Shown: positions 6,301 to 60,460 of the stretch, in pieces
Layout: every line of letters starts with the position of its first letter
Position numbering within the stretch: the stretch's first letter is position 1
Source: Paraspadella gotoi
Taxonomy: Eukaryota; Animalia; Chaetognatha
Length of the DNA: 64,000 nucleotides
Direction: 5' to 3'
NCBI GenBank assembly: GCA_051294375.1
Contig: CM119265.1
Span: forward strand, 1,728,280 to 1,792,279
Notes under the pieces: model-generated
Told to the model about the DNA's origin: nothing
Databases searched by the model: none
What the model saw: only the letters and a program-made list of their open reading frames with translations
Position numbers and translations under genes: made by a program

Positions 6301-9205
6301 CGACCGACCAAATCCACTTTCCCTTCAGACTTTCTCCTCTTCCTCGGTCATCTTCGTCTCCGAAGAATCACAAACGAAACTCGGACGTCATTTCGTGAAT
6401 TTGATTCCAATGGAAAATTTGGCGGGAAAAAACTTGGGATTTCTGCTCGCGATCGCAAACGAGGCCGAAGTCATATGGGACTGGAGGAGGAGGAGGAGGA
6501 GGAGGAGGAGGAGGAGGAGGAGGAGGAGGAGGAGGGAAGGACGGAGGAGAGGAGACCGATCCTTAACTTCGACCTCGACGCATTTCTCAGAAATTCATCG
6601 GGCGAGTCTATATTTTTTGTCGTTTTTAGTTTTATCGGATCAATTTTAGCGTCTGTCTGTCTGTTTCTCTGTGTGCCTTTCCAAAAGACTAAACTTTCAA
6701 TCTCACCGACTCTCCGTCCTGCCGTTTGTCCTAATGTTTTTTTTTTTTCACTTTTTTTTTTTTCATTTTAATGATACAGCTGCCACCAAGTGGCGAACAA
6801 AATGAGATGAATCAGAAAAGAGAATTGAATTGGCTAGTTTTACAAAGTGGCATCCATTTATATATGAAGAGAGAGAGAAAATTTGGTTTTCATTTGTAAA
6901 TTAAATAATTATAAAAATAATTTTAAATAAGGTAAAATTTTACGACCGGCGTTGAAACATGGAGAGAAAAACCAATGGTACATAATTTTTAATTAATTCG
7001 TTTGGTGATTTTGTTTTCTTATTTTATTAATTATTTTCTTATTTTTTTCTTTTCATTTTTTTTAATTTTTTTTTCTTATTTTTCCTATTTTTTCTAATTT
7101 TTCTAACCAAGGATCTTCATTCCCCAATTTTCATTTTCATTTCATTTTTCCCTTCAGCCTTCAAAATCCAAGAACCGACAGTCAACTCGACTCATTCCTT
7201 TTTCTCTCCCGACGGACATGACGCCATCTGGAATCAAAGACTCAAAATCGTCAAGGGAGAATCGAGGACATTCGGTGTCCTGCAATTTCTGGCAGATGGA
7301 CGTGGGCAATCTCTGGCAGATGGTCGATGGGAGCGAATGCCGTCGGGACTTTTGCATTATCGGAAAATGTTACCAGGTGAGAAACATTTACGATTTATTG
7401 GCAATGATTAGCTAAACGGACAATATACAAGGCTCTCATTTCTGATCTTTTATTTCTAAATTTAATATTTAGCCTTAATATGTTGCCTAGTCTAAATTTT
7501 ATCCCTAACCCTAAACCACAATACCCAATGTTTAACCCAAAATCTTAAACCATATTCCCTATCCTTAATCTCAAACCCTAATCATTAACCCAATCCCTAA
7601 TCTTAAACCTTATTCCCTATCCTTAATCTCAAAGCCTAATCACTAACCTAATCCCTAATCTTAAACCATATTCCCTATCCTTAATCTCAAAGCCTAATCA
7701 CTAATCTAATCCCTAATCTTAAACCATATCCCCTATCCTTAATCTCAAACCCTAATCACTAATCTAATCCATAATCTTAAACTATATTCCCTATCCTTAA
7801 TCTCAAACCATAATCACTAACCAAATCTCTAATCTTAATTATCTAATTAATCCATAACCTAATCTTTAAGTTTAACCATAATTTCTATCTTAATGCGCTC
7901 TGGGAAAATAATTCCAAATAGAGCTTTTCGTGGAATTTCTATTTTCAGTAACAATATCAAACGAGTCTTCGGACGTGTGGGTTCGAATGGCACCGCTGCC
8001 ACCACATTTGAGAATATGTACACAAGGATTTCGATGTAAAACCAAAGTGGAATTTATTTCAGGCAGAAAATACGACAGAAGAAATGCGGTGACAATTTTC
8101 GAGACGGAGTGAATAAAAGTCTATTTAATAAATAAATAAATATAATATTTATCCAATGGAACCGGATCAAGGACATGTGCGAGATTCGCCGGTGGATGGA
8201 AGCCAATTGTCTCATTGGCTGATGCCATTGCTGACTCGACCAATGAGAGAGTCAGGATTTATTTCTTACGGATTCTTCTCGAGTCGTTGATCCGATTTCG
8301 ATTCCAATTTCCCTTTTTCCAGACTCCACCAAACCTACCCTCATGTCACCGACCACCATCATTCGAGTTCCTCGCGGAAGTCTCGCCCCTTACGATTCAG
8401 CCCTTCACTTCCGCCCAGCCTTCTGGGCTCTCTTCCGCCCTCCAACGGCGATCGGCGGCCGCGGCGGCGTCGGGCGATCGATCATTGCGCAGGCCACCTT
8501 CGAGGATCTGGGTTTGGCGGTTGGAGTCGTTGAAGGGGCTTTGGGGAGAAGAGGTTGGTTCGGAGTTGGAGGGGGATGGAATGAATGAATGAATGAATTA
8601 ATGAATGAAAGAATTAATGAATTAATGAATGAATACATGAATAAATACATGAGTGAATAAATAAATCAGAGACAAGTATGAACATTTAACAAATTACAAA
8701 ATAAATTGACTTGTAAATGAACGAATAATTGAAGTCTTTTTTTTAATCGATAGGAAAGTTTAAACGTCGAAAATCAATCAAAGACGGACGAGGTTCCCAA
8801 GCTCGCACGCGACCTCACAGAATTGCCCACCCTCGCGTCCACAAAGGGACCCGCGACCAGGATGTAAAGAGAATCGAGGCGCTGGCGGATTTCATCCTCT
8901 TCAATTACGTCAGGAGCGAAGAAGAGTGGATGCCGTCGACGACGACGACGACGACGATGACTCTGGCGAGGAAACTGGAACGCATCTGGGACGACCTGCG
9001 TCTCGTTCGATACGTAGAGCCTGAGGACGTGGAGGCGTTGAGAGGTTGGCTCGGAGCGTTGGAGGACGTCGGGTATAGATTTCCGATTTGGGAGGAGGAA
9101 GAAGTGACGAGCCGTTGCGCGGGAGGTTCGGGGTTGAAGGAGAGGCTCGTCGAGATGGCCGACGCGTCGGAGGATGTGGAGTCTTGGAAGAGAGGGTTGC
9201 GCTGA
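5155..9205 (+). CDS. STELLO/DUF288-like glycosyltransferase, type II membrane protein; degenerate, 1-nt frame break near 6484
   Basis: Exons 5155-5302, 5809-5884, 6092-6218, 6329-6601 (GC donor), 7158-7376, 8323-8553, 8754-9205. Signal anchor FLLGALMVAVVMFICLV, then KWLVTAS..DWCVVVVG, KNLGFLLAIANEAEVIWD, VPRGSLAPY..AFWAL..RSIIAQ and DVEALRGWLGALEDVGYRFP, in STELLO motif order. Confidence 0.75.
5479..5733. repeat. Interspersed repeat family B copy
   Basis: Aligns with 1812-2070. Confidence 0.8.
7500..7880. repeat. 58-bp tandem repeat (about 5 units) built from degenerate CCCTAA, intronic
   Basis: TTCCCTATCCTTAATCTCAAA at 7555, 7613, 7671, 7729, 7787; followed by GCGCTCTGGGAAAATA, which resembles the MITE TIR at 26180-26200. 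Confidence 0.85.
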
Positions 9206-27370: not shown

Positions 27371-32085
<4,715 letters not shown>

Positions 32086-32105
32086 GGACTTAAAACTATA
32101 AAATC

Positions 32106-32337
32106 GGGTTATTTTTATTTTCACAAACCGGGGTTAACTTAAGGAGGGGTTAGAGTTAAGGGTGGTTTAGAAGTGGTATAAGGTTAGGGGTTATTAGGGT
32201 TAAGATGGGTTTAAGGTTAGGGTAATTAAGTAATATTTTTAAACAATTTTTTAAACAATTTTTTAAAAAATAACTATTTTTAAATAATTTTTCAAAAACC
32301 GTCAAAACCGCGGTCGGCGAAAGTAAAATTTATCCCT
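32106..32337 (-). mobile_element. MITE of the same family, in the GRB2 3' UTR
   Basis: Reverse complement aligns with 31584-31776. Confidence 0.7.
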
Positions 32338-32852
32338 AATATTTTCATTTATAGATTTAACGTCTAATTACTAAAATACTGAAAGCTCAACTAATTCGGG
32401 TCACAGCCTTCAGAAAAACTATTGGCCTATTAGTATTAGTATTACTATGATATCCGTTTTGTGTGTAATTCCCATTTCTGTTATCTGATGTTCATTGGGT
32501 GAATTTTGACCTCATTTTGACCAGAGGGTTAAAGCAGACCTCTCACCGGTTCTTCCACAATCCACATCCAGGGTCGTTCTAGTCAAATTCCAATCCATAT
32601 ATTGAAATATAAAAAAAATATGTTTCAATTGCTAGTCACAACTTTACTGTGTAAAAAGTTTATATATATATTCAAATTAGTTTAGTTTGGTTAACCAATT
32701 TGATTACCACTTTCGGTGGAACGTAATACATTTATTGTTTCATTGTGTCAATTTATTCATTTTGAACAGATGAAATAACACTTAAAAATAACTGAAAAAC
32801 TAAAAAAACAAAACTAAGAATTTTTTTTTTCCGAAATAAAAAAAAAATAAAA

Positions 32853-34555
32853 ATGGAAGCAAAATGTCTGTACGATTTTTACGCAACGAGACAAGACGAA
32901 CTCGGCTTTAAACAGGGAGACGTTGTTAAGGTTAGTAATTGTATAATTAATGATAATAAAAGTATAACTTGAAATATTAATCAATTTAACTAACGTCTAC
33001 TCTCTCCCATCAGATCATCGGTCAAGGCGACAACGACCAGTGGCTCCGCGCAGAGCTGGTCGGTCGCGAAGGCCAGGTCCCGTTCTCTTACGTGCAAATG
33101 GCGCCCCGCCCTTGGTTCCAGCCGAAAATGAGCCGAACTGAAGCTGAAAAGTTCTTGTTGACAAAAGTAGAGAAAGGGAATGGAGGCAAGAAGGAATTCG
33201 AGTACGAGGGTGAGAAAATTAGGGGGGGGGTCGATGTTTAAAAAAAAAAAATCATTAAATCAAAAGGGCGATAAAAATTCTTCCAAAATGAGCAAATAAT
33301 ATTTCTATAACTTTCTTGAGGCAAAATGGTTTTAGTTTACAACGAATTTTATTTTTTCATAGAAACTAAACTAAAACCATTTTGCCTCAATACATATAGT
33401 GGTAATAACCTTTCTTTTTTCGTTGTTATAACTTTCTTTAAATAAGTTCAACACGTTAACTTTACAAACAATTTTTTAAAATAAATCGTTTGATCGTTCC
33501 TATGTTTAATTATAATAATTTAACTCATCGTTGCAGTAACAAATTAAAACTGTTTTTGTAATCATTTATTAATTTATTGAATATCAATTAAATCTAACTC
33601 GCATCCAATTCCACCTAAACTCCCCCAGACGGTTTCTTCATCATCCGTCCGAGCGACACTCGCCTCGGTGAATTCACGCTCAGCGTGAAATACAACAAGA
33701 CGGTCATTCACGTGAGAGTCAATCGCGATGGAGACGGAAAATATTTTCTTTTGAGTGAAAAGGAAAAGTTCGATTCGCTCAACAAACTTTTGGAACATCA
33801 CAAGTCATCGTCGGCGTCAAAGTGAGTTAGGGTGAACACTGAACAGTTAACACAGTGAACCTGTAGATGTCAAGGATGGTCCAAAGGGTGTTTTCTTCTT
33901 CCCCCCTCTCTCTCTGTCTCTGAGTGTCTCTCTTACTCTCTCTCTCACTCTCTCTCGCTCATCGTCTTGAGTTGTAATGTATCTCTATCACCTGAGGTCT
34001 GATCAATCTTTCTTTTATGGCAACAGCCGGGTTGCCTGTGATGCCCATTGGGATGGGGCATCTCACTGTTGGCTTTGAGGGCTTCCGACCCTCAGTGACG
34101 CCTCCTGTCACTGGCGCGGTTACCCGAGGACGGTCTCGCTTTGCCAACGCAGAGGGAAGTCATTAGGACTGTGGATGGAACACAACGCCTGGGATGGTGG
34201 GTTCCCCCTCTGAGCCAATGGTATTGAGGTGGTGTGAATATACCGCCACACTTGTCATTAACCTCCACCATATCTTCCCATAAAATACACTATTGCAACA
34301 TCCTTCACATCCGGTCCAACCTCCAGAGCCCATCACGTCCTTCTCCGCTTCATCGATCGCTACGCGGAGGCGGTCTTCGACTTCCGTCCACAGAGCGACG
34401 CGGAACTCGAGTTAAGTCGCGGAGATGTCGTGAGAATCGTCGATGCCTTCGACGCTGATTGGTGGGAAGGCGAGTGCGGTGGACGAAGGGGCATTTTCCC
34501 CAAGAACGTCGTCAACACGGGGACCGAGGCGGCGGTAAACGGGGCTTTTCATTAA
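32853..34555 (+). CDS. Divergent GRB2-like SH3-SH2-SH3 paralogue (tandem duplicate)
   Basis: Exons 32853-32930, 33014-33209, 33629-33821, 34327-34555. MEAKCLYDF..DELGFKQGD..QWLRAE..PWF..DGFFIIRPS..GEFTLSVK..RDGDGKYFLL..AVFDFRPQ..DWWEGECGGRRGIFPKN. Confidence 0.92.
33317..33390. repeat. Perfect 24-bp inverted repeat (mini-MITE or hairpin), intronic
   Basis: TTGAGGCAAAATGGTTTTAGTTTA ... TAAACTAAAACCATTTTGCCTCAA. Confidence 0.85.
34017..34169. repeat. GC-rich multi-hairpin interspersed element (copy 1)
   Basis: About 150 bp, near-identical to 49362-49513. Confidence 0.85.
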
Positions 34556-38385: not shown

Positions 38386-39842
38386 GATAAATTATAGGAG
38401 CTTTAGAAAATCGGAATAGTTTGTCTCCGCGTCGAGAATACAAAAAAAAATTTATTTTTTTAATTAAAAGTTATTATAACTAAACATGCGTTCTTATTCT
38501 GGGTTACGACGACCGTTTTTCCATTTTTGTTGGCCGGGCGTTGGGGGAAGGAGGGAGAAAAAAGTCTTAGGTTTGAGGGATTTTCGAAAGTTTTATTTTG
38601 TGAGATTTTAAACCTAAAAAAATCTGTAGAGAATGAAATTTTTTTTTTTGTGAAACAAAACTTTTTTTGTTAATATTAATGGAATCTTTTTGTTTTTAAT
38701 GGAATCGAAAGGAATTTTTTCATGCAGAACAACAAAAGGAATCCTAATGTATTTTTCAGTTAAGTACGATTCGAACAAAATTGTACGTCGATAATAAATA
38801 ATTAAATCAACAAACGATTTAGACAGAAATTCTTTAAAAAAAAACTTTCAAAAGCGCCATTTTTAAATTGTAAATATATTCGAAACATAAATTGTTTCAA
38901 AAAAAAATCAGGGTTACGCTTACGAACGGTATTACTATTAAAGAGCTAATGAAACATCCCTGTTGATCCGCGGCCAAAGTTCCACGAGGCATGCAATAAA
39001 TATTTTGGTTTAGCTTTGGTTCGCTGCGATTGTGCACAATGAGTTTAGCAAACTCCACGGAAAACTGTGGGGCTCCAATTCCGGACCTTCGTTTCCAAAA
39101 GCGCGAGATTTATTCAAACCAGAGACTTCAACGTTAATCAAATAAAAACATGAAAAGCGAAAGCGAGAGTAATATTTGTTTTGTCGTAGTAACTTGTAGT
39201 AAGAACGATAATTTTGAATAGTATATCGTAATGTAATTATAACTATGAATTCGACATTTCGTGGCCTTGATTATCTCGCGATCAGATTAGAAACGGATCC
39301 AAAATCGGAACGGACTTTTGTTGGGTTTTTTTTTTTTTGTCAAACGAGAATTAAAGTCGCGCATAAAAAGTTCCGCTGTCGTCGCTTCAATCGACGATGA
39401 ATCCGGAGAAGACAAAAGCGATTCGCAAATATTATCAGTATAAAAAACCACTAATTAATATAAACATAAATATCCTTAATCTTCCATAGGATATTCGGCA
39501 ACCCAAAGCGAAGAGAATAAAAAAAAATTCTCCACCAAAAAATTAATTCTAACCCAAAAATCAATCAATGCCAATCAAAATGAGTGAAAAAGATTTAACA
39601 AGCCTTAATTAATGTGACCTAAAATGATTCTGTAAAATTTAAATATGAGTCGAAAATTTGACTCTCAAATCCACAACAGAAATTTGAAAGCGTAAAAAAA
39701 GCAAAGTTTTACTTAAAAAAAAAAATGAAATAAGAAAAAAAAACTGAACCGATATCCTCATACAAAAATAATTTTAAAACCAAAAGAAGGAATCGAAAAA
39801 AATTCAACTTTGTCCTTCTCCCTCTTGTTTTATTTGTCCTTG

Positions 39843-40247
39843 TCAGGCGACGACGCAGGCGTCCTTGTCCTTCTTTTTGGCAGCGGCGCCCCTCGATTCT
39901 TTCCTGCGACGCCGCGGCGGCGACGGCGGCGATTCCGCTCCGGGCGAAGTCGGAGTCGTCGTCGGCGTCGTCGTTCGACTCGACCGCGGCGCCACCGGTT
40001 GGCCGGGAGACGGTGGCGGCTCCGTGTCTCCGCCGCGGCGTCGTTCCTTCGACGTGACTCCGCCGCCGGTTGAAGCGCCGCCGGCAGATTTGGGGCCGCT
40101 TCTACCGCCGCCGCCGCCGGCGCTGCGCTTTCCGCGTTTTCGGTGCGGTCGATAGGCGCCCTTGTCGCCCAATGACGCCAGCGACGGCGCCTTCCGCGGA
40201 TGACGCCGCGATTTCTTTCGTTTGGTTCCAGTTTTCTTCGGATGAGG
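39843..40247 (-). CDS. AGTPBP1: Alternative terminal exon of AGTPBP1 encoding a basic, Pro/Gly-rich tail ending KKKDKDACVVA* (CaaX)
   Basis: Strong acceptor CTCCTTCTCGTTTTCAG at 40248, phase 0; open for 134 codons; in frame with both upstream donors (after 40700 and after 40467). Confidence 0.7.
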   Translation of the reverse strand, partial: PHPKKTGTKRKKSRRHPRKAPSLASLGDKGAYRPHRKRGKRSAGGGGGRSGPKSAGGASTGGGVTSKERRRGGDTEPPPSPGQPVAPRSSRTTTPTTTPTSPGAESPPSPPRRRRKESRGAAAKKKDKDACVVA

Positions 40248-40481
40248 CTGAAAACGAGAAGGAGAGCGCTCGATAAGATAATGGAAAGAAAGAATGAATG
40301 AATAAATGAATGAATGGATGAATGATGGGATGGATGAATGGAAGAAAGGTATTATGGAAGAATTTATGGATTAGTTATAATTATTATTCAATTATTAATA
40401 ACCAATGGTCGAATGAATAAATGAATGAATGAATGAATGAATGAATGAATGAATAAAAGATCGAACCTTAGTGGACTGAAC

Positions 40482-42116
40482 TCAAGGTGTGTAGTATTCA
40501 TAATCGTGAGGGTCTTCGTCGTCGTCGTCGTCGTCGTCTTCGGACTGCGTCGCTTCTTCGTCGCTTTTCGACGGACGAGAGAATCGAGCCGTTTGAAGGT
40601 CGTGAGAGGCGAACGCCTGTTTCGGAGGGTAAAAGGCGGACATTTAACTAACAATTTATATAAGAATTTAACAATTTAATTTACTTTCCCCGTCCCGACC
40701 TGTTCGAGATTGACGGTAAGGGCGTAAGATTTGAATCCCGTCTTCTGGTTGAGTTTGAGCAGCGCCTCCGCGAACTTCTGCCCCATCTCCTCCAGATGGC
40801 GCGTGCTGACGTGGAGGCCACGGTAGGGGCCTTGGTCCAGCCCGCAATACGTGCTCTCCATCGTGTAGCTAATTGAGAGGAATGGGCGAGACAATTAAAA
40901 TACCACGCCTATCCAGACCGCGCGCACTCAAACCACAACCACTCAAGACCACGCCCACTAAAGTCTAAAGTAAAGGCCACGCTCACCTCCTGTTGACGCC
41001 GAACTGGCGCCAAACGACGACGCGCGCTGTAGCCTCTTTGGCCTTCTCCACGACGAAGGCAGAGTTCTGGATGGAGAAGGATGGGGCGATGTGCTGGAGA
41101 ACGCGGGGGAGGATTTTGTAGGAGGAATCCTCGATGCGGTTCGAGTCTAACGAACACCACGACAACGACGGCGAACACCCTGGAAGAGGAAAAAAAATGA
41201 GAGGGAGAAGTCAATATCTACTGATAAATCAATAAATTGATAAACAATTCCTAGGAGCGATAAAGTTTCCAAATAATTCGACACGCACCGTAGAGAAAAA
41301 CGTTTTTCCGGCGGGAATGTCCGTGCATGTCGCAAAAGACGACCGGTGGCTTTTTAAAGGCGTTTAGGAAATGAAGCAAACCTTGGATCAAGAAAAAACC
41401 GTGATGACGTTGACGATAAGTCACGTGATTGACTCTCATTTCCGTAAAAATCGAAGGCCAGCATCACAAGCTTACCTTTCGTGTGATAAATTGGGGCGTG
41501 AAGTTTGGAGCAAGGGGCGGACCAGGTCCGGTTTAAATCTTCCGCTCCTTGAAAATCAAATTAATGAATCGATAATTAAAATTTACTAAAATCAACTAAG
41601 GAAAAAAAAAATCAACAATCGAAAATAAGTAACGGAAATTTTAACGACGTTGGAGTCCCCCCTCCTCCTCCTCCTCCTCCTCCTCCCCTCACCCAATGAA
41701 GTCCGGTGGCAGCCGTTAATAACTCCCTCCGGGTTCAACATGGGAACGATTTTGAAGATGAATTGATCCCTGAGCGATCGGGCCGTCGGGTGGCGGCTTA
41801 GCAAAAACTGTTCGAGAAGGTTCGATTGAAGACATCCGAGCTCAAGATTGGCCCAATATGTGGTACTTTATCCCAACCAGACCTGCAGCGTGCCCTTCAT
41901 GAGCCAACTGGCGTTACTCTCGCCAGGATGTACGCGGGCGGTGAGGAAGACGTGAGGTCGAGAGGCGACGTCGTCGAGCGTCGCCTTGGAGACGCGGGGT
42001 GAGTTCGAGGTCAGGGTAAGGACCTCCACCTTATTCTCGTTCAGGGTACGGCAAAGGGTTTGTCTAAATGGAAAAAAGTCATGGTTATCCACCTAATAAC
42101 AAAAACAAAAAAAGGC

Positions 42117-42165
<49 letters not shown>

Positions 42166-45100
42166 GATAGTAGATGTCGTTCTTGTCGATGGTTGATTCC
42201 CATCGATCGAGCTGCGCGACGAGGGTAGTGTAGGTGAAAGGGTAGTGATAGGCGAGGTAGCAGACGTCGAAGGGATGCTTGAAGGACACGGTGAAGGTCG
42301 TCGTGAAGTAGGTTTTGCCTTTGGCTCCACCTGTCATCGAGGAGAGGGGAATATTTTCATTTCTTAGAAATGCTCCAACCCATTATCTTCCCTCCCGACA
42401 TTATTCTCCTTTCGCTCTATCAACAATTCCTCAACTTCCTTCGGGCCAGATCTTCGAAGTAATCATACATCAATGATAGATGACACATGACACATGATAC
42501 AATGATACGATTGTCTGATCACAGCTCACAACAGTTTTTTTTTTCCGCTGAAAATGGTCATAGAGTCTCCAAAAATGTGTCATTCTGTTCGTTATTAAAA
42601 CGTTCTTTAAGAAAAAAAAACCTTTCAAAGATTTTTTAAATACTTCTCGCCTCTCCAGGGGCGTCAAAGTGGCCACGAGGTCCAAATTTATCGATTTTTG
42701 ATAATTTTCTTTATTTTCTTGTTATAGAGATAGGCTAATTTTAAATAATTTTTCCATAATATTGTGTATGATTTATTAGTTATTCAATAACAGAAAATCT
42801 TTATAGAGATTTGTAATTTGCATTGATTATCAACGTATCAGGGTTAAACCGGAAAAAATGGCAACAGACCGGAAATGACTCAACTCGAAAAATCATGTTA
42901 TTTTTGCATAAAAATTTCAATTTAGGAATTTTTCCGAAAAAAAAAATATATGAAAGCTAGAAAATATTTAAATTTTATAAGTCATTGCAAAAGATGAGAA
43001 AACGATAGATACGCGGGACGAAAATGCAGAATTAGTTTCAATTTACTTCAATTTGTAAAATTCGGAGCGCGTGACTGGAATCAAGTATGAATTTGTAGCC
43101 GGACTACGCGTTGAAATGAGGAAGAACAGGCTTGTCAAGGAAAAAGATTTGATGAGAAAAACAGTGTGAGACTGGATTTAATTTTAAAAACATCTTAAAT
43201 TTAAACGTATTGTAAATATTTTTTTAAAAAGTTTTTTTATAATAAATATCAATCTTTTTGAATTAGCGGGAAGAAAACCTTGCAAATACCACATATGTCA
43301 TAAAAGATCCGAGATTTAATCACTACAATCTAACGATGCTGATATTATGTGCCGAACACTAAACATATGGAAATGCCAGAAACTATTACAGTTACATTAA
43401 AGCAGCAAGAGGTGAATATGGTCAGCCATCAGCACTGCTGATCGGGCATGTCTATCAACCGGACAACCTTTTTCTCCTTTTACGAGATTATTGTTGTCAC
43501 AGTAAAGTTGTCATGAAAGAGGTTTTTCTTTTGCTTTCACTTATTGCTGAGATCGCTAAAGAAGTTTCATATGACCAAGTTAAATCTTACAAAGGTAAAA
43601 TTTAAAAACAAGTTTTATTGATCGTAATAATATCTCATCTCAGGAAACCTTTAACTTCTGAAAATTTTTATTGAAATGACCTGTAGGAACATAAACTCCC
43701 TATGTAGTTCGTCGCTTTAAATTTACTTTTGTAAAAGTGTTTAAAATATAAACAATCAATATTTGTTTAAGCGCGTTCTTGCTTTATATCCTGAATATGC
43801 TTATTTCTCGTGTGTTTTAGCTCTGAGCCCGCAGCAAAAAGTTTATGTCACCATTATGTCATTTTACAATGTACATCATGGCGAGATGCGTCTCTCCCTC
43901 TAAAAAAATAAACGCAATGCAATGAAAGACGCAATGGTGGCGGCTCTTAAAATGGCAATATTTGTTTTGAATGGGGAAAACAGGCAATGCCTTGTATGTA
44001 CGATGATAGTCATCTGAAGAATTTATAACCGAATAGTCTTGCTTGTTTTTTCAGTTCCAATATTTGTTTTAACAATTTGGTAAAATGAATTAATATAAGG
44101 AAACATAAAAATTCTTCCATGCTTACAGCAGATTTGAGCCGTCGATGAATGGAAAGAAGCAATTCAAATTTCCAAGCTTTCGTCACTTTTTAAACAGATT
44201 TTCTCTGCTCAATGAAGCCACTGAGCGTTAGGTCAAGTTTGCAAGTGCATGACTTTGCAAATTCCCATATAATCTTGGCAAACTTCATTCAGGTATTTTT
44301 GCAAGGCAATTGATATGAATCAACGCGAGCCGATCCCAAAGTAATAGTTTTAAACTTGAAAACGGTTACGGCCATTTTGGTCACATGATTCTCATCTAAT
44401 ATCCTCATATACTGATTTTTTTGCCATAAAACTTTTGTTACGAAATACATTATTTTTACTTTTTAAAACTTGGTCTTTGCATTTTTCTTGTAGCAATTAA
44501 AATTATTTGAATCTGTGATCTAAATTTTTCATTTTTAGGAAAAATTTCAAAGTAATAATTTAACTTCCGGTTTTATTATATTATTAAAAATTCTTAATAA
44601 CGGTTTGAGGTTGTTTAAATTACGATTAAATATTTTGGGTAACATTTAGTTAACAGGTAATACAAATTTTATCCTTATTTTTATAATTATCTAAAAAATT
44701 GTTTTGAAAGACCTCAAAAAATTGCTGAAAATCAATTATTTTGACGCCCGTGGCACTTTAACGCTCGGGAAGGCGAGATATTTAAAAAAAATGCATTATA
44801 AATGCTTTCATTGTGTATAGCGTCGGTAGAGAATACGAAAAGAATTGGACACTCATTTTTGTTGCATAACTCGTATGAAACAACCTTTTTCAGCGGAAAA
44901 AAATGTGTCTAATCATCATCATCATCATCATCATCTCCCCCTACCCGTTGTCTGAGGCGATCGGGCGAAATGGTTCCTGTAGTAGCAGACGTCGGTGCCG
45001 ACCCTCGTCCAACGAGAATTCCCGTGCATCGCGTCGAAAACGGAGAAGCAAACGGGCTGCGACGGTGAGAACGATAAAAATCTCATTTGCATGTCCGAAC

Positions 45101-48100
45101 TGCCATATAATCGAGCGACGCACCTGCATGCCAAAGTTGAACTGGCTATTTTGCTTCTCGCAGTTGATGATGTTGAACCTATAGGGAACAGCGGGCTCCA
45201 TGTTGGAGACCTGAAAATAGAACCACTGGTGGTGGTGGTTCGTATTCACGTCAGGGTTGAGGATGAGGTCGTACTCGTACTCGCGAGCTTGGATGGCCTG
45301 AAAGGGGAGGGAAGAAGGGACGAAAAAAAAAAGAGATAAATTCATCAATCGACAAAGGATGGATTCATTTCCACCTCGATTCAGCCCAAGCGCACCTTCC
45401 TGAGATTGCCCGCCTCGAACTGCGCGTTGAAGAGGAGATGATCGGCGAATTCCCTGACTCCGACGCGAGACTCGTCGTCGTTGGTCAACTCGTTGTTGTC
45501 CCCGCAATAGAGCGGACCTTTGGTGGCGATGACCGCGTCCTGATCATACACCACTCTGCGATAAAAGTGATTTTCTTAATCAAATGGAAAAAGAGAGTTG
45601 ACTTCCCGACGCCCCGCAATCCGCATGGCCTCGCGACGAACCTGTTGATGACGTCCTCGGGGTGAATGAGTCGGTCGATGTCTTCGAATATCTTGGCCCG
45701 TTGGACGCCGACTTTCCGGTCATAAAGCGGTTCCTTTGTTTGGAAAAAAAAGAGTGGAGTCGCGTAATTTGTGGTTAAAAGAAAAAATATTTTGACAAAG
45801 TATCCATAGATAAAAAACTACAACGTATAAGAAAACCTAATCAGAAGATAATACAGATTTAAAAATCATCACATTTGAAATGAAAAAAATGATCGGGTCA
45901 ACCCGACTGGTTAAGCACCTGAAAAGTTGGCGGTTTGTGGCCATAGAGATCGGGGTAGGCGACTTTGTTGAACCAACCGACCGAGTTGGTGCGTTTAGCT
46001 GCGGCCGTGACCAGACCCGGGTCGGGTAGCCCGAGTTCCGCGTCCTGATGAAGGAGTCCAGTTGAGGAATTAAAAACAGTTGAAAAAACAAATAAAAATT
46101 TTACATTTAATTATGAATAGCCCTTGTCATTTTCAAATTTTAATATTTAACTTGATTCCCAGACTCACCAGGTCAATGTAGCTGCCGTGAGAAAGGCCGC
46201 AATATGAACCTAAAACGCGAAAACATATTATTCGTGGAGTCCGTTTGTCCTTCTGTCAATCTCAATCACACGCTTTGTTCACCTGGTCTGAGACGCGAGG
46301 AGCGTTTGTGCGGCTGTTTGGCCGAATCCACGGCTGAGCGATACAATTCCCTAAGGGTCGTCTTCGCCCCCTGGGGGAGACTAGATTGGCGGGGAAGGAA
46401 CCGTTCGGGTGATGCCTGGAGAGTGGGTGAGTTGAGGACAAGGAACTCAATTTAAAATAATATAAAAGTAAATTTATTAATAATTATTCCACTTATTCCC
46501 TCTTACGCTCTCTACGGCCCTTATCAACCCCTCGTTTCACCTCGCTTTCGTCCTCGCCGCTGCCGCCGCGGTCCGACGATGCGGACGATACGCGGCGTCT
46601 GCTACGCGCGGGTTCATAGTCGAAGTCGCTGTCGTCGCGACGCAATTCCGCCGCGCGATGCAGCTCCGACCCGCGATTTCCCACGCTGCCGCCCTGAGTT
46701 GAATTGTAACAGCGTTAGAGTCTCATTGTTCCGAGGGGTGACCAAGTTACTATAAATTGCGCTACCTGTATCATCAGCTTGCCGAGAGGATTCCCGGCTT
46801 CCGAGGAAGGAACATCTCTGCGTCCGAGACGTAAAGGAGCCGGAGGGGAGGATAGGTGATACTAGAGCGGAGGATCAAATCCGTCAGGCTGTCAGTCTCA
46901 CTCGAACGTTCTCTCTCTGATGCGCTCACTCATTTACCTGTAGAGATCCGGACGGCGGGGGTAAATCCATCAAAGGGCGTGAAGAAACGGATTTGATCTG
47001 CACCGTCTGCCCGACGCCTTGCGGGACGATGCCCGGCACCAAGCCTTGCCCGACGCCAACCACGGACGCTTGGGTCGAGGCTGGACCTGTCAGAGCGGGC
47101 CGAGCCGGTCGTCCGTTGGTCTTGAGAGGACCCAGGGTAGGTGGGGCGACCAAAGCCTGCGGGGAGTCAAGGCGTAAAAACGGTTTAACTTTCTGTACAG
47201 TGTAAAGGATAAACTGAAGCCATTCCTCACTACTTTCTTAAAAATAACATGCTTCAGTTATATTTCAAAATATTGTTGGAGATAACAATTATAATATAAA
47301 GCTTGAGATTTTATACGAACTCAAATCTTTCACGTTTAAAAAGACGAAGAAATAGAAAAATCTTTTAGAGTTTTTTTCAACTGAAAACTGAAAAAAAAAT
47401 AATCAGAAATAAATTTTAAAAGAGAAAAAAAAATATCTAACGAAACTGATGCAATCATTTTTTCGATAATTTCTCTTGCCCAATTTGCTTTTAATGATTT
47501 ATTACCATATATATAGGGGAAAAGAGTACTTAAAGCCTTAAGATACAACAAGCTATTGGCCAAAGAAATGATCAACCCCCTAGAAGTTTCTTGGTAATTT
47601 TAGCAGCAGTTTCAACGCGATGGGAGAGGACGAACCGGAAGCGGCCGACGCCGCAAAGAAAGAAGGTCCATTGCCGGCGACTATATCGGTGGCAACGCTG
47701 CCTCGCTCCTCCATCTGGGACGCAAACGTCAACGCCACCCGCAGTTGCGGCCCAAAAAGATGCGATTGCAACTGGTTTTTCGTCTGCTCCACCTTTCTGC
47801 TCTGCGTTGCTATGGTCGGTTTTTTAACCAGATTTTTTGAGAGCCTCTATAGCGTATTGAGATGTTTGTGGGAGGCTACCCTTACTCCTATTGGAAATCT
47901 TAAAATATGACACTCGTTTAAATGAGACAACAATCATCTTCTTGAAGATAATGACTAATATTTGACAAAAATACAACACGTGCGATGTTTATTTCTTTAA
48001 CCAAACCTAAATACTTGTTCTCCTTTTCTTTTGATATAAGATTTACATTGAAGTTTCCAATCGATTCTCTTTTTGCAAATTGAATGATGTCCCTCGAACT

Positions 48101-51100
48101 TTTCAACACATAAGAGCTTGAGCATCGTGGCCGCCATCTTCATTGACCAACTCTGGTGCCACAACCGAGGAAAAAAAGTTTGCCCAACACATCCGGGCGT
48201 CAGGGTGATCCAATTAATAATCAATTATATGCATATCATTATCGACATTTTTACATAAATGTAGATTAATGTCCAACACCCAGGAGATGCTTTTTCCCGC
48301 TGCGGATAATGTCAAGGTGAAGGAACTTGTGAAAATCGCGACGGATCTCAACGACCTCAGAGAGTTGAACCCCCAAATCAATAAGAAAAATCTCATTGTG
48401 CGAGGAGGGAAAGAGGAAGTCTGCCTCACCTTCGAGAAATTCCCAGGCCTTTACAACAAAAACGCCCAACCGGAGGGAAACTTCGAGGTAAATACAACAC
48501 GGGAAGCGTTGACCATCACACGCTGGTGATGAACGATGAGCAACGAAAAAATTTTGACCCTTGGGTTCCATATCTCGGCAGTTAACAAGAACGAATTAAG
48601 TAACAGTCTGGGATTAAAAAGTCAGCGAGCGATCATGGAGCCGGATCTTTGTCCTCTCTAACTTCAGAGTACAACTATCTATTACCACGTCTTCTTCGCG
48701 CAAATCATGTTCTCGTCTTCGGCGGTGCTAGCCTTCTTCACCATCGTCTTCTCCACCTCCGAGCACCACATGATCAAGAGGGGCGGCGACGACTTCGAGA
48801 ACCTCTATAAGTGCCAGTTGATCACGGATCTCCTATGCGGCATTCTCACCGCCATCGGGGTCGGCCTGCTGCTCGGCGGCGTCGGCAGCATCAACGCCAA
48901 CGTAAAAGGGGCGCGGGGGAGGAAGAGCGAAGGGAAGTTTATCATTAAAATCCTCCTCAAATTTTGTTCTCCTAGTTCATGGACAAGATCTTGACCGACG
49001 TTTGCAAATACAACTTGAGCGGGGGAATGACCATGGTCGTGTTGCCGGCGGCCATCGCCGGCGTCTTCTTCATCATCGCGGCGCCGCTTGGGTTTTTGAT
49101 GCATAGAGATTGAAAAGAAAGACCCGGTTTTGAAAGATTCGTGGATGAAAATACAAGAAACAGCTCGTCATTGTTTTTTTTTTGTTTTACTGTTTATATT
49201 TTGATTTTTAGAAACAATTAAAACGGAAAAAAGTTTTGTTTGATGTTTTTACAAACTAAAAAAAAATTAAGGAAAAGAATAGAAAAGAAAAACAATAAAT
49301 AGGAGAGAATCTCGATTATAAAAAAATTCAACATTTTTCTAATCCGCTCAAATCTGACTACTATGGCAACAGCCGGGTTGCCTGTGATGCCCATTGGGAT
49401 GGGGCATCTCACTGTTGGCTTTGGGGGCTTCCGACCCTCAGTGACGCCTCCAGTCACTGGCGCGGTTACCCTAGGACGGTCTCGCTTTGCCAACGCAGAG
49501 GGAAGTCGTTAGGATGGAACACTACGCCACCGTAACTTTCTCATTACGTCACTTTTGAGGTGAACATGTGACTACACAAGTTATTTATATGCAGTAAGCG
49601 TCACATCGCAGAGGAATCAAGACTCCAGAATCGCAATCGGATCAAAAAGATTGAATTTCTCAATCTCATTTTCATATTGCGGTATACACATCATACATTA
49701 ACATCAATAGCGATTATTATTTTAACATCAAGTATTTAAAATGATTTTAAGCCGAAAAACACAATTAATAATATAATAATAATATTAATATTAATAACAT
49801 ATTAAAAATACTAAACCGTAAGCTATGATTACATTGATAGGGAAGCCAGGTACTCTGGGAGTGAATTAACGGGACAGTGAGAGAGTCTTGATTGAAAGCT
49901 TGCAGGGACCTGCTATGTCATTATCTTGTAAGAGTGATGGAGGCCTTAAACCACCAAAGCCTGTCCAAAGTCAGGGGCAAGATAGCTTATTTATTAAATG
50001 AATGGATAATTATTATATTGGTTGTACCAATTTCATACATGTAAATGATTAGAAATTTTGTTTCTTAATTCATTTGTATTGTTTGTAATTTATCTATTTT
50101 TTCAAAAATAATTTTAATATATTAAACTTTTCAAGGTATACGTCTTATAGGAATATTTATTGCTTCAAAAAATTTAAAAATAATATGTACGTATGTAAAA
50201 TAGTATTATTGAACAAGGAACGGTTATTCCAAGGTGTTGCGCCTCATTACTTTTCTTTTTACTTATCATTAAAAACAAAAGAGGGCGTCAGTAGTTGCTT
50301 AGATTTGATTATTAACAAATGAGCAACAATATATAAACGTTTTTAACGTAAGTTGGACAGACCGATGGACAGACATACCGACCGACCGACCGAAAAGTGA
50401 CTTACAGAGTTGCTCCGCGAGTACTCGCGGCGCAACTAAAAACAAGACCCGGAAAGTTCAAGGTGTAGAGTGAGAGTGACTTTTTTATGTAGACCGAGTT
50501 TCAGATGATCACGTGTAACACGAAATAAGCCTCATTGATCGAAGACCGAAAAAGAAAAAGAAAAAAATGTAGAAAGAAAATAAGAAAAAAAAATTTCACC
50601 TGAGGACGAGTGGAAGAAGTCGCCTCGCCGGCGGCCGCAGCAGAGCCAGCGCAGGAGGCAGCGACGGAGGCAGCATCCACGGCTCCGCTCTCCAGTCTCG
50701 CGCCACCGGGATCGTAGGGAGCGTTGTTTGGCGGCGGCGAGGCGGCATTAATGGCGAGGGGCCAAGATTGCGACTTAGAAATGGGGCTGGTGGAGGGAAG
50801 GGCGAAGGGCACTCGAAGCGGCGTCAATTCTGCCGTCAGCGGCGTCGGTGGAACTGAGGAAAGGCGATGGAGACCCGCGGGCCCGTCGAGGTAGAGAGGA
50901 GTGGTTTGAGCGCCGCGGGGCGTTGCGGCGTCATGCGCGGGAGTGACAGCGTCATCGTCGTCGTTATCGTCATCGATGCTGTCGTAAGATTTCAATCGAT
51001 GCTGGGAACTTAAAGAAGGAAGTTTCGGCGCTCCGTTTTCGTTGAATCTGCCTGGACGACGGTCGGACGTCGACGGCAGCGAGGGACCGCCGCCGCCGCC

Positions 51101-52892
51101 GCCGCTGCAGTCCATCAGCTTCAAGCTGCCGAGAGAATCTGAAATGCCGAAAGTCGAGGCGCAACAACTAAAAGGAAAATGAAAGCGGGAAAGCGTTAAT
51201 ATTGGCTTATTCTTTTGCGCAATAAAATCGGTGGGTTCACCTGTCGGAGACGCTGAGAAGAGTGTTGCTCGAAGAATCGACGAGAGTGCTTTGCGTCGAA
51301 TCGAGATAAGCACCCGATTCGTCGCTGCCAACTGATTAAATAAAAATATTTTTTCAATTCAATAATTAATTATTCATTTAACAGTTTCAAAAATTCGGTT
51401 ATTTCGTATCCTGACCGGCGCCTTTGATCGACGCGGCGTCGGCAACGCCCGAATCTGGGCGGCGCGGCGCGGAATCAGCGCCGCTCGATTCGTCCGAATC
51501 CATAGACGCCAGTTCCTGCAGGGAAAGGAAGAAACGGAGAAAAGGAAAAAGCGTGAGAGAGAAGGGTAAAGAGAAGAGCAAAGTTGAGAAGGGCAAAGAA
51601 GGGCAAAGTTGCGAGAGAAAGTCTTCGCAACTAAAGACTCAAGCGAACCTTCAAGTATCTCTGTCCGAACTCGTATAATTCGGGAAAGAATTCGGCGTAA
51701 GACTCGCGGAGTTCGTCGGCCGAACGCGGAGCCTCGCGGACGAAGCGAAGAACGTCGTCGTCGTCGCGTTCGAGGGAGTCTTGGGAGAAGAGGCCTGGGG
51801 GGGGGGAGGAAGAGGAAGAGGAAAGGTAAGTAGAGCTCCTCCTCCTAATAATTCCTTATTCCTTCTCACCGCTCTTTCTCCTCTGCGCCGCCAACTCGGA
51901 CAACGACTGCCGATGCGCCGCCGCCGACGACGACGACGAAGACGATGGTTTCCCGCTCTTTTTGCCGCTGCCTTTGGAGGAAGGAGCGGCGGCCGCGGCG
52001 GCGCGTTTTCCGCCCGCAGCGGCGGCGCGGCGCCCGGGAACGGCGCCGCCAACGCGTTTTCCGCCGGCGACGTCGCTGCTCGAACCGTCGTCGTCTTCGT
52101 CGTCGTCATCGTCGTCGTCGGAGGCAGAGTCGTTGTCTTCCTGAGAATCGCTGCCTCCGCCGTGGGAGAGACGTCTTGGACAAAAACGTGGGGAGAAAGT
52201 ACAATTTTATAAGCTTATAACTTTTATGCCGTTTAACTTTTATCTGCTACATTTTACACTATCAATATCATACAAACATTTCTTAAAATTTTCACGCATT
52301 TTAGGCAATGACTAACGTCAGCAAGGCGGAATTCGAAATATAAATCTGAAAAAACTTTTCCCGAAATAAACGAGCATAAATGGAAGGGGGAATCTCTGTC
52401 TCACCTGTAGTCGCTGTCGGGAAGAGAGAAAGTCAAGGGACTCGCGACGCTGGGAACCGGGAGGCGACTGCGGGGGAGGCACTTGCGCATGATTACGCTG
52501 AAGAGAAGGAGGAGGAGGAGGAGGAGGATAAATAGGTGAAATTCTCTCTCTAACTCTCTCTCTCTCTCTCACACTAACCTGGCGGTGTTGACAGCGCCCT
52601 CCAACTCTCTAGAGTCGAGAGTCTCGATGCAGACGCAGTATAGAACACGAATCCCGTCCGCCTCGACGAATGATTTGCGGCCTAAAGAGAGAATTTTGAA
52701 AAAAAAAAGATGTTTTTGTCGGGAGATTCCAAGACGTTGACTTACCCGATTTGAGATTGGCGATCTGCTTGAGCGCACCCAGGATGGACTTGCGGATGTT
52801 GACGTGACGATTGGAGGAATCGAAGCGATGCCAATCACTGTAGAGGCCGATGAGGAGTGCGACGCCGCCTGAGGGAGAAAAGAGTCCATCAA

Positions 52893-52954
<62 letters not shown>

Positions 52955-54188
52955 TCTTTCACCCATGCTGACGAGGCGAGAGGCGTTGCTCTTTGACTTG
53001 CATAGCAGCGCCAGGACATCCAGAGCCAATTTCAGTTGAGTCACGTGTTTCTTTCCGCACATTTGAATGACGCGGAACATGTAGGAGACCGCGCCGGCCT
53101 TTCCGAGCTGTTGGGGGGGGGGGGAACGAGAGAAAGAAATGGGGGGGGGGAACCGGGAACGAAATGGGGGGGGGGACCGGGAACGAATTGTTATGGACTC
53201 ATCACTTACATAAACCAAATAGGATAAAACGGGATTGTTTCTTGTATTTTTTAAATTCTACAAAATTGCAACATTTTCCACCTGCGAGGCGTTGACGGCG
53301 TTGTTGGCGTATATCTTGAGCACGTAGAGGGCGGGTTGCAGCGTCTTGAAGTAGTTGGCGTGATTGCGCACGAGATTGAGGGTGACGCCGAGGGCTCCAG
53401 AGAGGCGCGCCTTCACCTCGAACTTTCGGTCCTTGGGGCCCAACTTGGCGAGGATCTGGTGGAGGCTCATCACCAGCTCCTCGTTCACGGGGACGTCGCG
53501 GGACACGTTGACCAAGATGTTGAAGAGGACCTTGGTGGAGAAAAGTCTCTATTTGGTATTTCCGTGATTTCTAATAGTACTACTTTTTTACTATTAAATA
53601 TATTAATGTTCAAAAATTAATTTTTATAAATTAAATTATATTTCATTCTGAAAACTTTATTTTAATTTTTATCCAAGTTAATCAAAGTACGACAAAATGC
53701 TAATTAGTTTAATGTCTCACTTGAGTAGCTCCACGATTAATGAGAGCCGTGACCCTCTTGCTGGAGGACGACTTCCCCCCGACGAGTTCGTTAATGACGA
53801 GGACAATATTCTGAACGACGACGGGGTCCGACGACGACTCCAGGAGGACGAGCAGCGTCTCGACTCCTCCGGACGACTTGGCCGCCACCTCCTTGCGCAC
53901 CTTTTGATTGGGGTGGATGAGGAGTTGTTGGACAAAGGCCCGACACTTTCTCATTAGATACTTATTTCGATGACAAACCTTATCGTGCGAGGTCACCAGC
54001 TGTAGCAACTTGGAAGTGGCCGTCTTCAATTGCTCCCTGCGAAGACGAATGACTTGAAGTTAGGAGTTATATAAAGACAAATTAAACGAGTGATGCTGAT
54101 TTTTAACTTACACGTCGTCTCCCTGATGGGCTTCCAACGTCTGCAATAGCGACGCCACTCGGTGGCGAACGTCTTTCTTGCTGTTCAT
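40482..54188 (-). CDS. AGTPBP1: Cytosolic carboxypeptidase 1 (CCP1/Nna1 tubulin deglutamylase), more than 20 exons
   Basis: N-terminal ARM-like region ([16 protein letters not shown]), [85 protein letters not shown]; stop TGA 40484-40482 after an acidic tail. Confidence 0.95.
42533..44907 (+). mobile_element. Decayed DNA transposon with long imperfect TIRs in an AGTPBP1 intron
   Basis: TTTTTCCGCTGAAAA..TCTCGCC..AAAGTGGCCACG at the left mirrors CGTGGCACTTT..GGCGAGA..TTTTCAGCGGAAAAAA at the right; interior has broken transposase-like peptides ([24 protein letters not shown]). Confidence 0.65.
47620..49113 (+). CDS. Claudin/PMP22-superfamily-like 4-TM protein nested antisense in an AGTPBP1 intron
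   Basis: Exons 47620-47814, 48115-48204, 48284(or 48265)-48488, 48668-48901, 48976-49113. TM1 [21 protein letters not shown], Cys-containing loop, TM2 [21 protein letters not shown]3 [18 protein letters not shown]4 [21 protein letters not shown]. Confidence 0.7.
49362..49513. repeat. GC-rich multi-hairpin interspersed element (copy 2)
   Basis: Near-identical to 34017-34169. Confidence 0.85.
49832..50037. repeat. Interspersed repeat family B copy
   Basis: Aligns with 1865-2070. Confidence 0.8.
50340..50442 (-). mobile_element. HINE/Helentron-like element head
   Basis: Perfect palindrome CCGCGAGTACTCGCGG, (CCGA)n and T-rich end; reverse complement of the 14737/28541 heads. Confidence 0.6.
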
Positions 54189-54962: not shown

Positions 54963-55622
54963 TCACTCGACGAGCGCGTCGACGATTCGCGCGAACTTCT
55001 TGGGATCGGCCTTCGGAAAGGGAACGAGATTGACATCGTCCAAACGGGTCACAGCCTCCGCCAGGCCCGTTGTCTGGGTGCGCAGGCAGTGACCCAGTTC
55101 CACCATCTTGTCGGCCAGCTCCGCCTGGTGGTCGGCCATGAGGGCGACGTTGACGACGACGATGAGCGGCTTTGCGGCGCCGAGAGCCTCTAGGACGGAG
55201 CCGGCGCCGCAATGGGAGATGATCAGGTCGGCAGAGACCATTTCCTTTTCGAGAATAAGTATTAAATTAATAATAAAATAGGAATTTAACAAAAAACCAT
55301 TCTACGAATCTACAGGATTCATTGCTCCAAGAACAGAACTTGGTCATTCCATAGATTTTCAACCGCCATCCCTCTCAGTCACTCCTATCCTTACCCTTTC
55401 GATGGAAGGCTTCAACCGGAACCACTCGATCTCCAACCCTTCATCCGTCGTCCCCTCCGGCGGCTCGAACTCTCCCTCCCCGATCTGCAGGACGAGTCGA
55501 CGAAAGCCTCGGGCGACGAGGGCGGCGCCGACCTCGGGCCGGCAGGCGCCGCGGACGAGCGCGTCGAAGGAGGTGGTGCCGACTGTGAGGAAAGCGGATT
55601 TGGAGGAAGAAGGCTCCACCAT
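54963..55622 (-). CDS. ALG13: UDP-GlcNAc transferase subunit ALG13 (short form)
   Basis: Exons 55622-55395 and 55244-54963. FLTVGTTSFDAL, LVLQIG, ADLIISHCGAGSVLEAL, LIVVVNVALMADHQAELA. Confidence 0.95.
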
Positions 55623-60136: not shown

Positions 60137-60349
60137 TTTAAAGTTTTTTTTTTTAAGTTTAATTACGAAATAACTTGAAAATAAGCATAACAAAAATGTA
60201 AATGGGAACAAACAAGTGTAAACCACAGAAAAGCAAAAATATGAATATTTTCATCCTCTTCCTCCTCTTCCTCCTCTTCTTTCTCTTCTAATATTAAACA
60301 GTTTTCTCCTTCTCAAATAAGAATTAGTCTTCCAACTCCTCCTCCTCCT

Positions 60350-60430
60350 CCTCTAATACCAATAAGTCGTCCCTCTCCTCTTCTTCCTCCTCTAATACCA
60401 ATAAGTCGTCCCTCTCCTCCTCTTCCTCCT

Positions 60431-60460
<30 letters not shown>
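60350..60460 (-). repeat. 39-bp triplication of the MRPL24 C-terminal codons and stop
   Basis: CTAATACCAATAAGTC at 60353, 60392, 60431. Confidence 0.9.

What the first reader, a model, noticed from the sequence alone, without database searches (positions are those of the whole stretch)
39843..40710. CCP1/AGTPBP1 has a hidden in-frame exon beyond its stop codon encoding a polybasic CaaX tail
Seen: the exon 40616-40467 encodes an acidic tail ([17 protein letters not shown]) and TGA at 40484. Fifteen nt later comes a phase-0 donor (AAG|GTTCGA), an intron and a strong acceptor (40248) opening 134 stop-free codons: PHPKKTGTKRKKSRR...AAAKKKDKDACVVA*. This exon is in frame both by skipping the stop exon (VNLEQ|PHPKK) and by UGA readthrough. 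Known: polybasic + C-a-a-X is the KRAS4B-type prenylation and membrane signal, and a stop less than 50 nt upstream of the last junction escapes NMD. Inference: a switch between a soluble acidic-tailed and a prenylated membrane-bound tubulin deglutamylase. I know of no prenylated CCP1 isoform.
Basis: partly seen in the sequence, partly recalled or inferred. Interest (0 to 1): 0.85.

Follow-up and report, generated by a model that had tools for sequence, protein, structure and literature searches.

The report
Tubulin enzyme hides lipid-anchor tail exon
The gene for a tubulin-trimming enzyme (CCP1) in this animal ends at its normal acidic tail, but a spliced last exon behind the stop codon reads in frame as a basic tail with a lipid-attachment signal, so skipping the stop-bearing exon would likely give a minor membrane-anchored form, which has not yet been seen.

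Summary
In RNA contigs of one run (X1) the stop exon is included. Contig geometry puts the next joint at 40467>40247, so the "hidden" exon is the mRNA's last exon. No skipping contig was laid; the TGA itself lay in a stretch the tool skipped. The TGA is the ancestral end: 49 of 70 homologs end acidic, 0 of 70 in Cxxx. The tail exon still looks coding: 69% GC (the richest 400 nt of the window) falling to 25% at its own stop, codon usage best in the CaaX frame (P about 0.015), and CVVA, a motif prenylated in yeast screens. Its openness alone is not significant (35% by chance). No relative of the tail was found, so conservation is untested. The layout matches KRAS4A/4B. The intron behind the stop exon holds the window's two densest YCAY (Nova-type) clusters, while the stop (UGA-G, no stem, no SECIS) lacks readthrough marks. 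Best reading: a minor spliced, prenylated CCP1 isoform (0.45); readthrough 0.2; plain UTR or relic 0.28.

The parts
39843..54188 (-). CCP1/AGTPBP1-type cytosolic carboxypeptidase gene, putative ATG 54188 to second stop
   Evidence: tblastn of homologs; Pfam PF25571 and PF18027 on single exons; 18 3' exons give 810 stop-free codons; 14 GT-AG joints listed in X1; ATG read from sequence, not tested
40700..40868 (-). last catalytic-domain exon (YTME...VNLEQ), phase-0 donor at 40699
   Evidence: close relatives P0108/P0109 (89% identical) diverge right after LEQ, so they share this junction
40467..40616 (-). 150-nt phase-0/phase-0 exon with acidic tail and first stop; candidate cassette exon
   Evidence: sequence; included in X1 contig of depth 61.6
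40482..40484 (-). first stop TGA (context UGA-G), ancestral C-terminus
   Evidence: homolog ends, Owenia ...GVYEYP vs window ...YEYYTP; base identity in RNA not seen
40467..40475 (-). possible 9-nt in-frame microexon behind a cryptic acceptor just after the TGA
   Evidence: acceptor score 4.2, inside the leave-one-out range 1.7-12.0 of 18 used acceptors; keeps frame; use not seen
40248..40466 (-). 219-nt intron with two YCAY clusters (about 40452-40405 and 40369-40281), 24 YCAY in all
   Evidence: 11.0 per 100 nt against 0-3.5 in 17 other introns; densest clusters of the window (10 and 11 per 50 nt; 10 is matched by one + strand tract)
39843..40247 (-). coding-like part of the last exon: 134 codons, basic, Gly/Pro/Ser/Thr-rich, net charge +27, then TGA
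   Evidence: transcribed and spliced at its 5' end in X1
39846..39857 (-). CaaX motif CVVA
   Evidence: sequence; in the prenylation-positive yeast set and predicted cleaved (PMC9231725 supplements)
38745..39842 (-). AT-rich 3' UTR (GC 0.32); AATAAA at 39834 and 39114
   Evidence: X1 contig covers 38745-40249 without differences

Best explanation
This CCP1 gene splices its stop-bearing acidic-tail exon onto a further last exon whose in-frame reading is a basic tail ending in CVVA, and occasional, likely regulated, skipping of the stop exon would give a minor long isoform predicted to be farnesylated and membrane-bound. Shown: gene identity, inclusion of the stop exon in RNA, frame arithmetic, coding-like composition of the last exon. 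Inferred from contig geometry: the 40467>40247 joint, so the main mRNA makes the ordinary acidic-ended enzyme, and its stop, 15 nt from the last junction, should escape NMD (50-nt rule, recalled). Inferred, untested: in some cells the 40700 donor joins 40247 directly (or through the 9-nt microexon), swapping 44 acidic residues for 134 basic ones; a Nova-type protein on the intronic YCAY clusters would favour inclusion; FTase adds farnesyl to CVVA, and the lipid plus basic stretch would tether the deglutamylase to a membrane (plasma, ciliary or, given the NLS-like clusters, nuclear envelope) next to its tubulin substrates.
For: Same layout as KRAS, where exon 4A carries the stop and exon 4B follows untranslated unless 4A is skipped (PMC5945503 passages). 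Stop exon is symmetric, 150 nt, phase 0/0. Last exon GC 0.69, the highest 400-nt window of 64 kb, against 0.33-0.48 over 400 nt after the stops of 6 other genes; the GC step falls at 39836 (39834-39847), which holds the CVVA stop. Synonymous codon usage fits the gene best in the CaaX frame of 6 frames, P=0.015 in 3000 shuffles. CaaX by composition about 5e-4 (loose) or 3e-5 (strict); 5 of 1214 stop-ended frames in the window, one being this. CVVA is in the prenylation-positive set. 24 YCAY in the downstream intron against 0-3.5 per 100 nt in 17 other introns; downstream YCAY clusters promote inclusion of Nova-regulated cassette exons in mammals (PMC3737533 passage).
Against: No skip or microexon contig was laid in X1: only one contig covers 40700-40868 and it runs unbroken into the stop exon, so skipping is minor or absent in that sample. 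0 of 70 and 0 of 145 CCP1/4 homologs end in Cxxx (many are close kin). No relative of the tail in three searches. Full codon log-odds (P=0.11) and lag-3 asymmetry (P=0.52) do not support coding; several statistics were tried, uncorrected. The genome is rich in microsatellites: 4 perfect tetranucleotide tracts in the window, one other of the same ATTC type at 8579-8598. The donor at 40467 is unremarkable (4 of 17 leave-one-out donors score lower). Two Asp lie just before the cysteine.
Confidence: 0.45

Rival explanations
1. The last exon is plain 3' UTR, or the relic of a once-coding tail, and the CaaX is chance or no longer used; only the acidic-ended enzyme is made.
For: Only the stop-exon form is seen in RNA; open frame expected in 35% of shuffles and the +1 frame is also open; no homolog of the tail; no homolog with Cxxx; scanning many windows will turn up chance CaaX ends.
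Against: GC 0.69 with a step at the second stop, unlike 6 of 6 other post-stop regions; frame-specific codon usage; a strict CaaX at exactly that stop.
Confidence: 0.28
2. Ribosomes read through UGA 40484 on the main mRNA at a low rate and add 140 residues, so the long form keeps the acidic stretch and ends in CVVA.
For: The main mRNA carries stop and tail in frame with no second stop and is the only form laid. Readthrough extensions with predicted prenylation signals exist: Drosophila Syx17 (PMC3840789), Arabidopsis MT1C (bioRxiv 2021.11.09.467898).
Against: Context is UGA-G, not UGA-CUAG (leaky context recalled); the same TGAG ends the neighbouring ALG13-like gene. No unusual structure after the stop: z from +0.96 to -1.84 in 20 windows. 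No SECIS match on the coding strand and none by pattern. 0 in-frame TGA and 8 TGG in 810 codons, so no code change.
Confidence: 0.2
3. The TGA is a private nonsense allele, an assembly error or an edited site, and the normal protein is the long one with both acidic stretch and CaaX.
For: The three bases could not be seen in RNA; the main mRNA has exactly the splice pattern a continuous frame would need.
Against: The TGA sits where homologs end: 101 residues after SYTME against a median of 116 and a maximum of 174 in 70 homologs, while the long form would have 241; Owenia ends YEYP. The listed X1 exon pieces show 0 differences from the window.
Confidence: 0.07

Closest known systems
KRAS4A/4B alternative C-termini (PMC5945503, passages)
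   Same: A cassette exon with a stop near its 3' end is followed by a last exon that is UTR when the cassette is included and codes a polybasic CaaX tail when it is skipped.
   Different: In KRAS both forms are seen and conserved across jawed vertebrates (PMC9882654, passages) and both are lipidated (recalled); here one form is acidic and unlipidated, the skip form is unseen, the tail is 134 residues and the protein is a peptidase.
OAS1 p42/p46 (PMC8357416, abstract and outline) and ZAP-S/ZAP-L (PMC8568172, listing only)
   Same: An enzyme or RNA-binding protein gains a prenylated, membrane-targeted isoform through an alternative C-terminus.
   Different: Both isoforms are demonstrated; mammalian antiviral proteins; OAS1 depends on a splice-site SNP.
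Functional stop-codon readthrough adding a prenylation signal (Drosophila Syx17, PMC3840789; Arabidopsis MT1C, bioRxiv 2021.11.09.467898; passages)
   Same: In-frame tail behind a stop ending in a predicted CaaX.
   Different: Those have ribosome-profiling support; here the stop context is UGA-G with no stem, and an intron lies 15 nt behind the stop.
CCP1/AGTPBP1/Nna1 (M14D cytosolic carboxypeptidase)
   Same: N-terminal repeat domain PF25571, PF18027, catalytic motifs VHPGE, NPEG, MHGH, YTME, acidic C-terminus.
   Different: No homolog held ends in Cxxx (0 of 145); no paper found joining AGTPBP1 with farnesylation.

Membership tests
CCP1/CCP4 cytosolic carboxypeptidase | N-terminal repeat domain PF25571 and pro-domain PF18027 | tested here: met
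   114.4 and 50 bits (cut-off 27); 31.5 bits (cut-off 23.2)
CCP1/CCP4 cytosolic carboxypeptidase | M14 catalytic domain with intact zinc and catalytic motifs | tested here: met
   motifs read in the spliced translation; tblastn across the domain. PF00246 itself was not hit by the two single exons scanned. Motif roles recalled.
CCP1/CCP4 cytosolic carboxypeptidase | acidic C-terminal tail as in invertebrate CCP1 | tested here: met
   short form only; 49 of 70 homologs
CaaX-prenylated protein | C-terminal Cys-a-a-X accepted by a prenyltransferase | tested here: met
   CVVA in the yeast positive set, predicted prenylated and cleaved by the six scores of the 8000-motif table; motif only, not this protein
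CaaX-prenylated protein | second signal (polybasic stretch or palmitoylated Cys) before the CaaX | tested here: inconclusive
   last 24 residues hold 10 K/R and 3 D/E, two Asp next to the Cys; no second Cys
CaaX-prenylated protein | the CaaX-ended protein is made and lipidated | not testable with these tools
   needs proteomics or labelling
KRAS4A/4B-type stop-cassette switch | symmetric stop-bearing exon spliced to a last exon that is in frame on skipping | tested here: met
   (the 40467>40247 joint by contig geometry)
KRAS4A/4B-type stop-cassette switch | skip isoform exists in RNA | tested here: inconclusive
   not among contigs of one run; contigs drop rare forms
KRAS4A/4B-type stop-cassette switch | last exon conserved as coding in relatives | tested here: inconclusive
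   no relative's last exon could be fetched
Functional stop-codon readthrough | leaky context (UGA-CUAG) or 3' stimulatory structure | tested here: not met
   UGA-GUUC; folding z between +0.96 and -1.84
Functional stop-codon readthrough | ribosome footprints or peptides beyond the stop | not testable with these tools
   no such data available
Selenoprotein (UGA = Sec) | SECIS element in the 3' UTR | tested here: not met
   only a sub-threshold SECIS_5 hit on the opposite strand, E 4.7; pattern search empty

The most novel reading that the evidence does not exclude
A Nova-regulated splice switch gives this lineage's CCP1 either its ancestral acidic tail or a new basic, farnesylated tail: the first lipid-anchored eraser of the tubulin code in the CCP family, confining deglutamylation to microtubules near a membrane (cilium, cortex or nuclear envelope) in chosen cell types.
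Probability: 0.3. Interest if true: 0.72.

Novelty: new variant of a known kind. Interest (0 to 1): 0.5.

Why it matters
How soluble tubulin-modifying enzymes act on only some microtubules is an open question (own knowledge). A CCP1 isoform with a lipid anchor would be a direct, testable way to localise deglutamylation, and would show a KRAS-like C-terminal switch arising anew on an old enzyme. It would also be a tail that annotation misses because the main mRNA treats it as 3' UTR. If it is only UTR, the gene is an ordinary CCP1 with an intron just behind its stop.

Tried and rejected
No genome is held for the window. The run search gave one holder, not on record as RNA but spliced at GT-AG joints; X2 and X3 of the same study hold next to nothing of the stretch. 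Both read layings skipped the repeat-rich stretch holding the TGA, so the stop and the 40467 joint were not seen directly. Tail homolog searches: 0 of 5328 candidates at E<=10, 0 in 1.84 billion representatives, no usable Atlas hit; weak for a low-complexity tail. Close relatives P0108/P0109/P0199/P0200 hold only the penultimate exon and their contigs could not be fetched. Metagenome scans: pattern 0 hits; 10 loci, none above 70% identity; 7 of the 10 were translated and only L001 shows a transcript-like end, acidic with a stop 7 codons later. The tree (quick method, 32 rows) leaves the animal unplaced: nearest row Owenia, 62% identity, support 83. Rejected: selenocysteine, code change, a donor before the TGA (only a phase-1 candidate scoring 1.8), an independent ORF (no Met in the tail), and openness of the frame as evidence. 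Earlier scan findings for this place or sequence: none.

Full report
Observation. The minus strand holds a CCP1/4-type gene from a putative ATG at 54188. Homologs align across its exons, single exons hit PF25571 and PF18027 above cut-off, and 18 exons from 47156 down give 810 codons without a stop. Exon 40616-40467 ends the frame at TGA 40484-40482 after an acidic stretch; 15 nt later comes AAG|GTTCGA, a 219-nt intron, and 134 open codons ending in CVVA and TGA 39845-39843. Skipping the exon, reading through the stop, or using a cryptic acceptor at 40475 (9-nt microexon, new here) all keep that frame.

RNA. One run, X1, holds the stretch. It is not on record as RNA, but 14 of its 15 listed joints are GT-AG introns of this gene (2 more joints not shown). 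A 3372-nt contig (depth 61.6) runs from 40700 into 40616 without a break. A 1578-nt contig (depth 55.1) matches 38745-40249 with no difference and has 75 letters beyond the acceptor. Joined at 40467 the contig would reach 40541 and overlap the other by 28 letters, close to what graph neighbours share. So the main mRNA includes the stop exon and then the last exon; this joint is inferred, because the tool skipped 40278-40549 and 40448-40549 as repeats. No skip form was laid, but contigs drop rare forms, and this is one sample.

Is the TGA real? Of 104 homologs, 70 reach the last catalytic motif; 49 of these 70 end with a net acidic last 40 residues, and 0 end in Cxxx. With cluster members and later hits, 0 of 145 (of 201 proteins held) have Cys four from the end; these are not independent, being mostly molluscs, sharks, birds and arthropods. 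The short form has 101 residues after SYTME (homolog median 116, maximum 174), the read-through form 241, and Owenia ends GVYEYP beside the window's YEYYTP. The first stop is therefore the ancestral end and the tail an addition.

Is the tail coding? For: GC 0.69, the highest 400-nt window of the 64 kb, against 0.33-0.48 in the 400 nt after the stops of 6 other genes and 0.27 after its own stop; the GC step lies at 39834-39847, holding the CVVA stop, with the +1 frame's stop at 39832 just beside it; synonymous codon usage fits the gene's own best in this frame of six (P=0.015), and neighbouring identical residues use different codons 17 times (P=0.012, though other frames give 8-16). A CaaX is expected at about 5e-4 (loose) to 3e-5 (strict) from the exon's composition and occurs in 5 of 1214 stop-ended frames of the window, this one included. 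CVVA is in the positive set from yeast prenylation screens and scored prenylated and cleaved (PMC9231725, passages and supplements 6-8; file 9 unreadable). Against: openness is worth nothing (35% of shuffles), two other statistics are null (P=0.11, 0.52), and no relative of the tail turned up. I put a coding function at about two in three.

Route. Readthrough has no mark: UGA-G context, no stable structure in 20 windows behind the stop, no SECIS, no reassigned TGA in 810 codons. Splicing has one: the intron behind the stop exon holds 24 YCAY in two clusters, 11.0 per 100 nt against 0-3.5 in 17 other introns of the gene, one starting 14 nt after the donor and one ending about 33 nt before the acceptor. 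In mammals, Nova on YCAY clusters in the downstream intron promotes inclusion of cassette exons (PMC3737533, passages). The caution is that the first cluster is a plain tetranucleotide repeat in a microsatellite-rich genome with one more tract of this type at 8579-8598. The layout equals that of KRAS, where exon 4A carries the stop and 4B follows untranslated (PMC5945503, passages; PMC9882654, passages, calls the exons mutually exclusive and conserved for over 450 million years). I therefore favour regulated skipping (0.45) over plain UTR or relic (0.28), readthrough (0.20) and a faulty or private stop (0.07).

Known and new. Isoforms that gain a prenylated end are known: OAS1 p46 (PMC8357416, abstract and outline), ZAP-L (PMC8568172, listing only), and predicted readthrough cases in Drosophila (PMC3840789, passages) and Arabidopsis (bioRxiv 2021.11.09.467898, passages). 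For CCP1 I found none: 'AGTPBP1' with 'farnesylation' 0 papers; 'Nna1', 'readthrough', 'carboxypeptidase' 0; none of the 20 listed of 1603 papers holds 'cytosolic carboxypeptidase'; the 12 listed of 24 (listing only) show no such isoform. The library lacks most subscription journals. The targeting outcomes named in the best explanation (plasma, ciliary, nuclear membrane), the 50-nt NMD rule and the leaky-stop context are recalled, not tested.

Verdict. A real, transcribed, coding-like last exon with a good CaaX behind the ancestral stop of CCP1; the long protein and its conservation remain unshown. New variant of a known kind, interest 0.5.

Noticed in passing
window 47600-49100, + strand, inside the CCP1 intron between about 50400 and 47156: Hydrophobic, GC-richer reading frames on the opposite strand look like a nested membrane-protein gene; not scanned against Pfam.
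   Followed up: no
window about 60300-60435, - strand: The end of a gene (KTYWY stop; ribosomal-protein label recalled, no Pfam hit) is repeated in tandem about three times, stop included; real repeat or assembly artefact.
   Followed up: no
window 42331-44944: The one long CCP1 intron in the 3' half (2614 nt) draws high-depth, divergent X1 contigs, as expected of transcribed interspersed repeats.
   Followed up: no
window 8555-8669, - strand: A second TCAT/TTAT-rich tract between two GC-rich segments; either background microsatellite or another YCAY cluster.
   Followed up: partly
window 35500-62400: Densely packed genes, mostly on the - strand: porin-family (PF01459), CCP1, glycosyltransferase-28 C-terminal (PF04101), with a glutamine synthetase on +; the glycosyltransferase stop at 54965 is under 800 nt from the CCP1 ATG.
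   Followed up: no
window 27900-34555, + strand: Two successive sets of SH3/SH2-like adaptor exons, GRB2-like by eye (SH3 confirmed for 34262-34552).
   Followed up: no
proteins P0108, P0109, P0199, P0200: Short unnamed metagenome ORFs 89% identical to exon 40868-40700 show that close relatives are in ENA assemblies; their contigs (656-838 nt) may reach the stop exon.
   Followed up: partly
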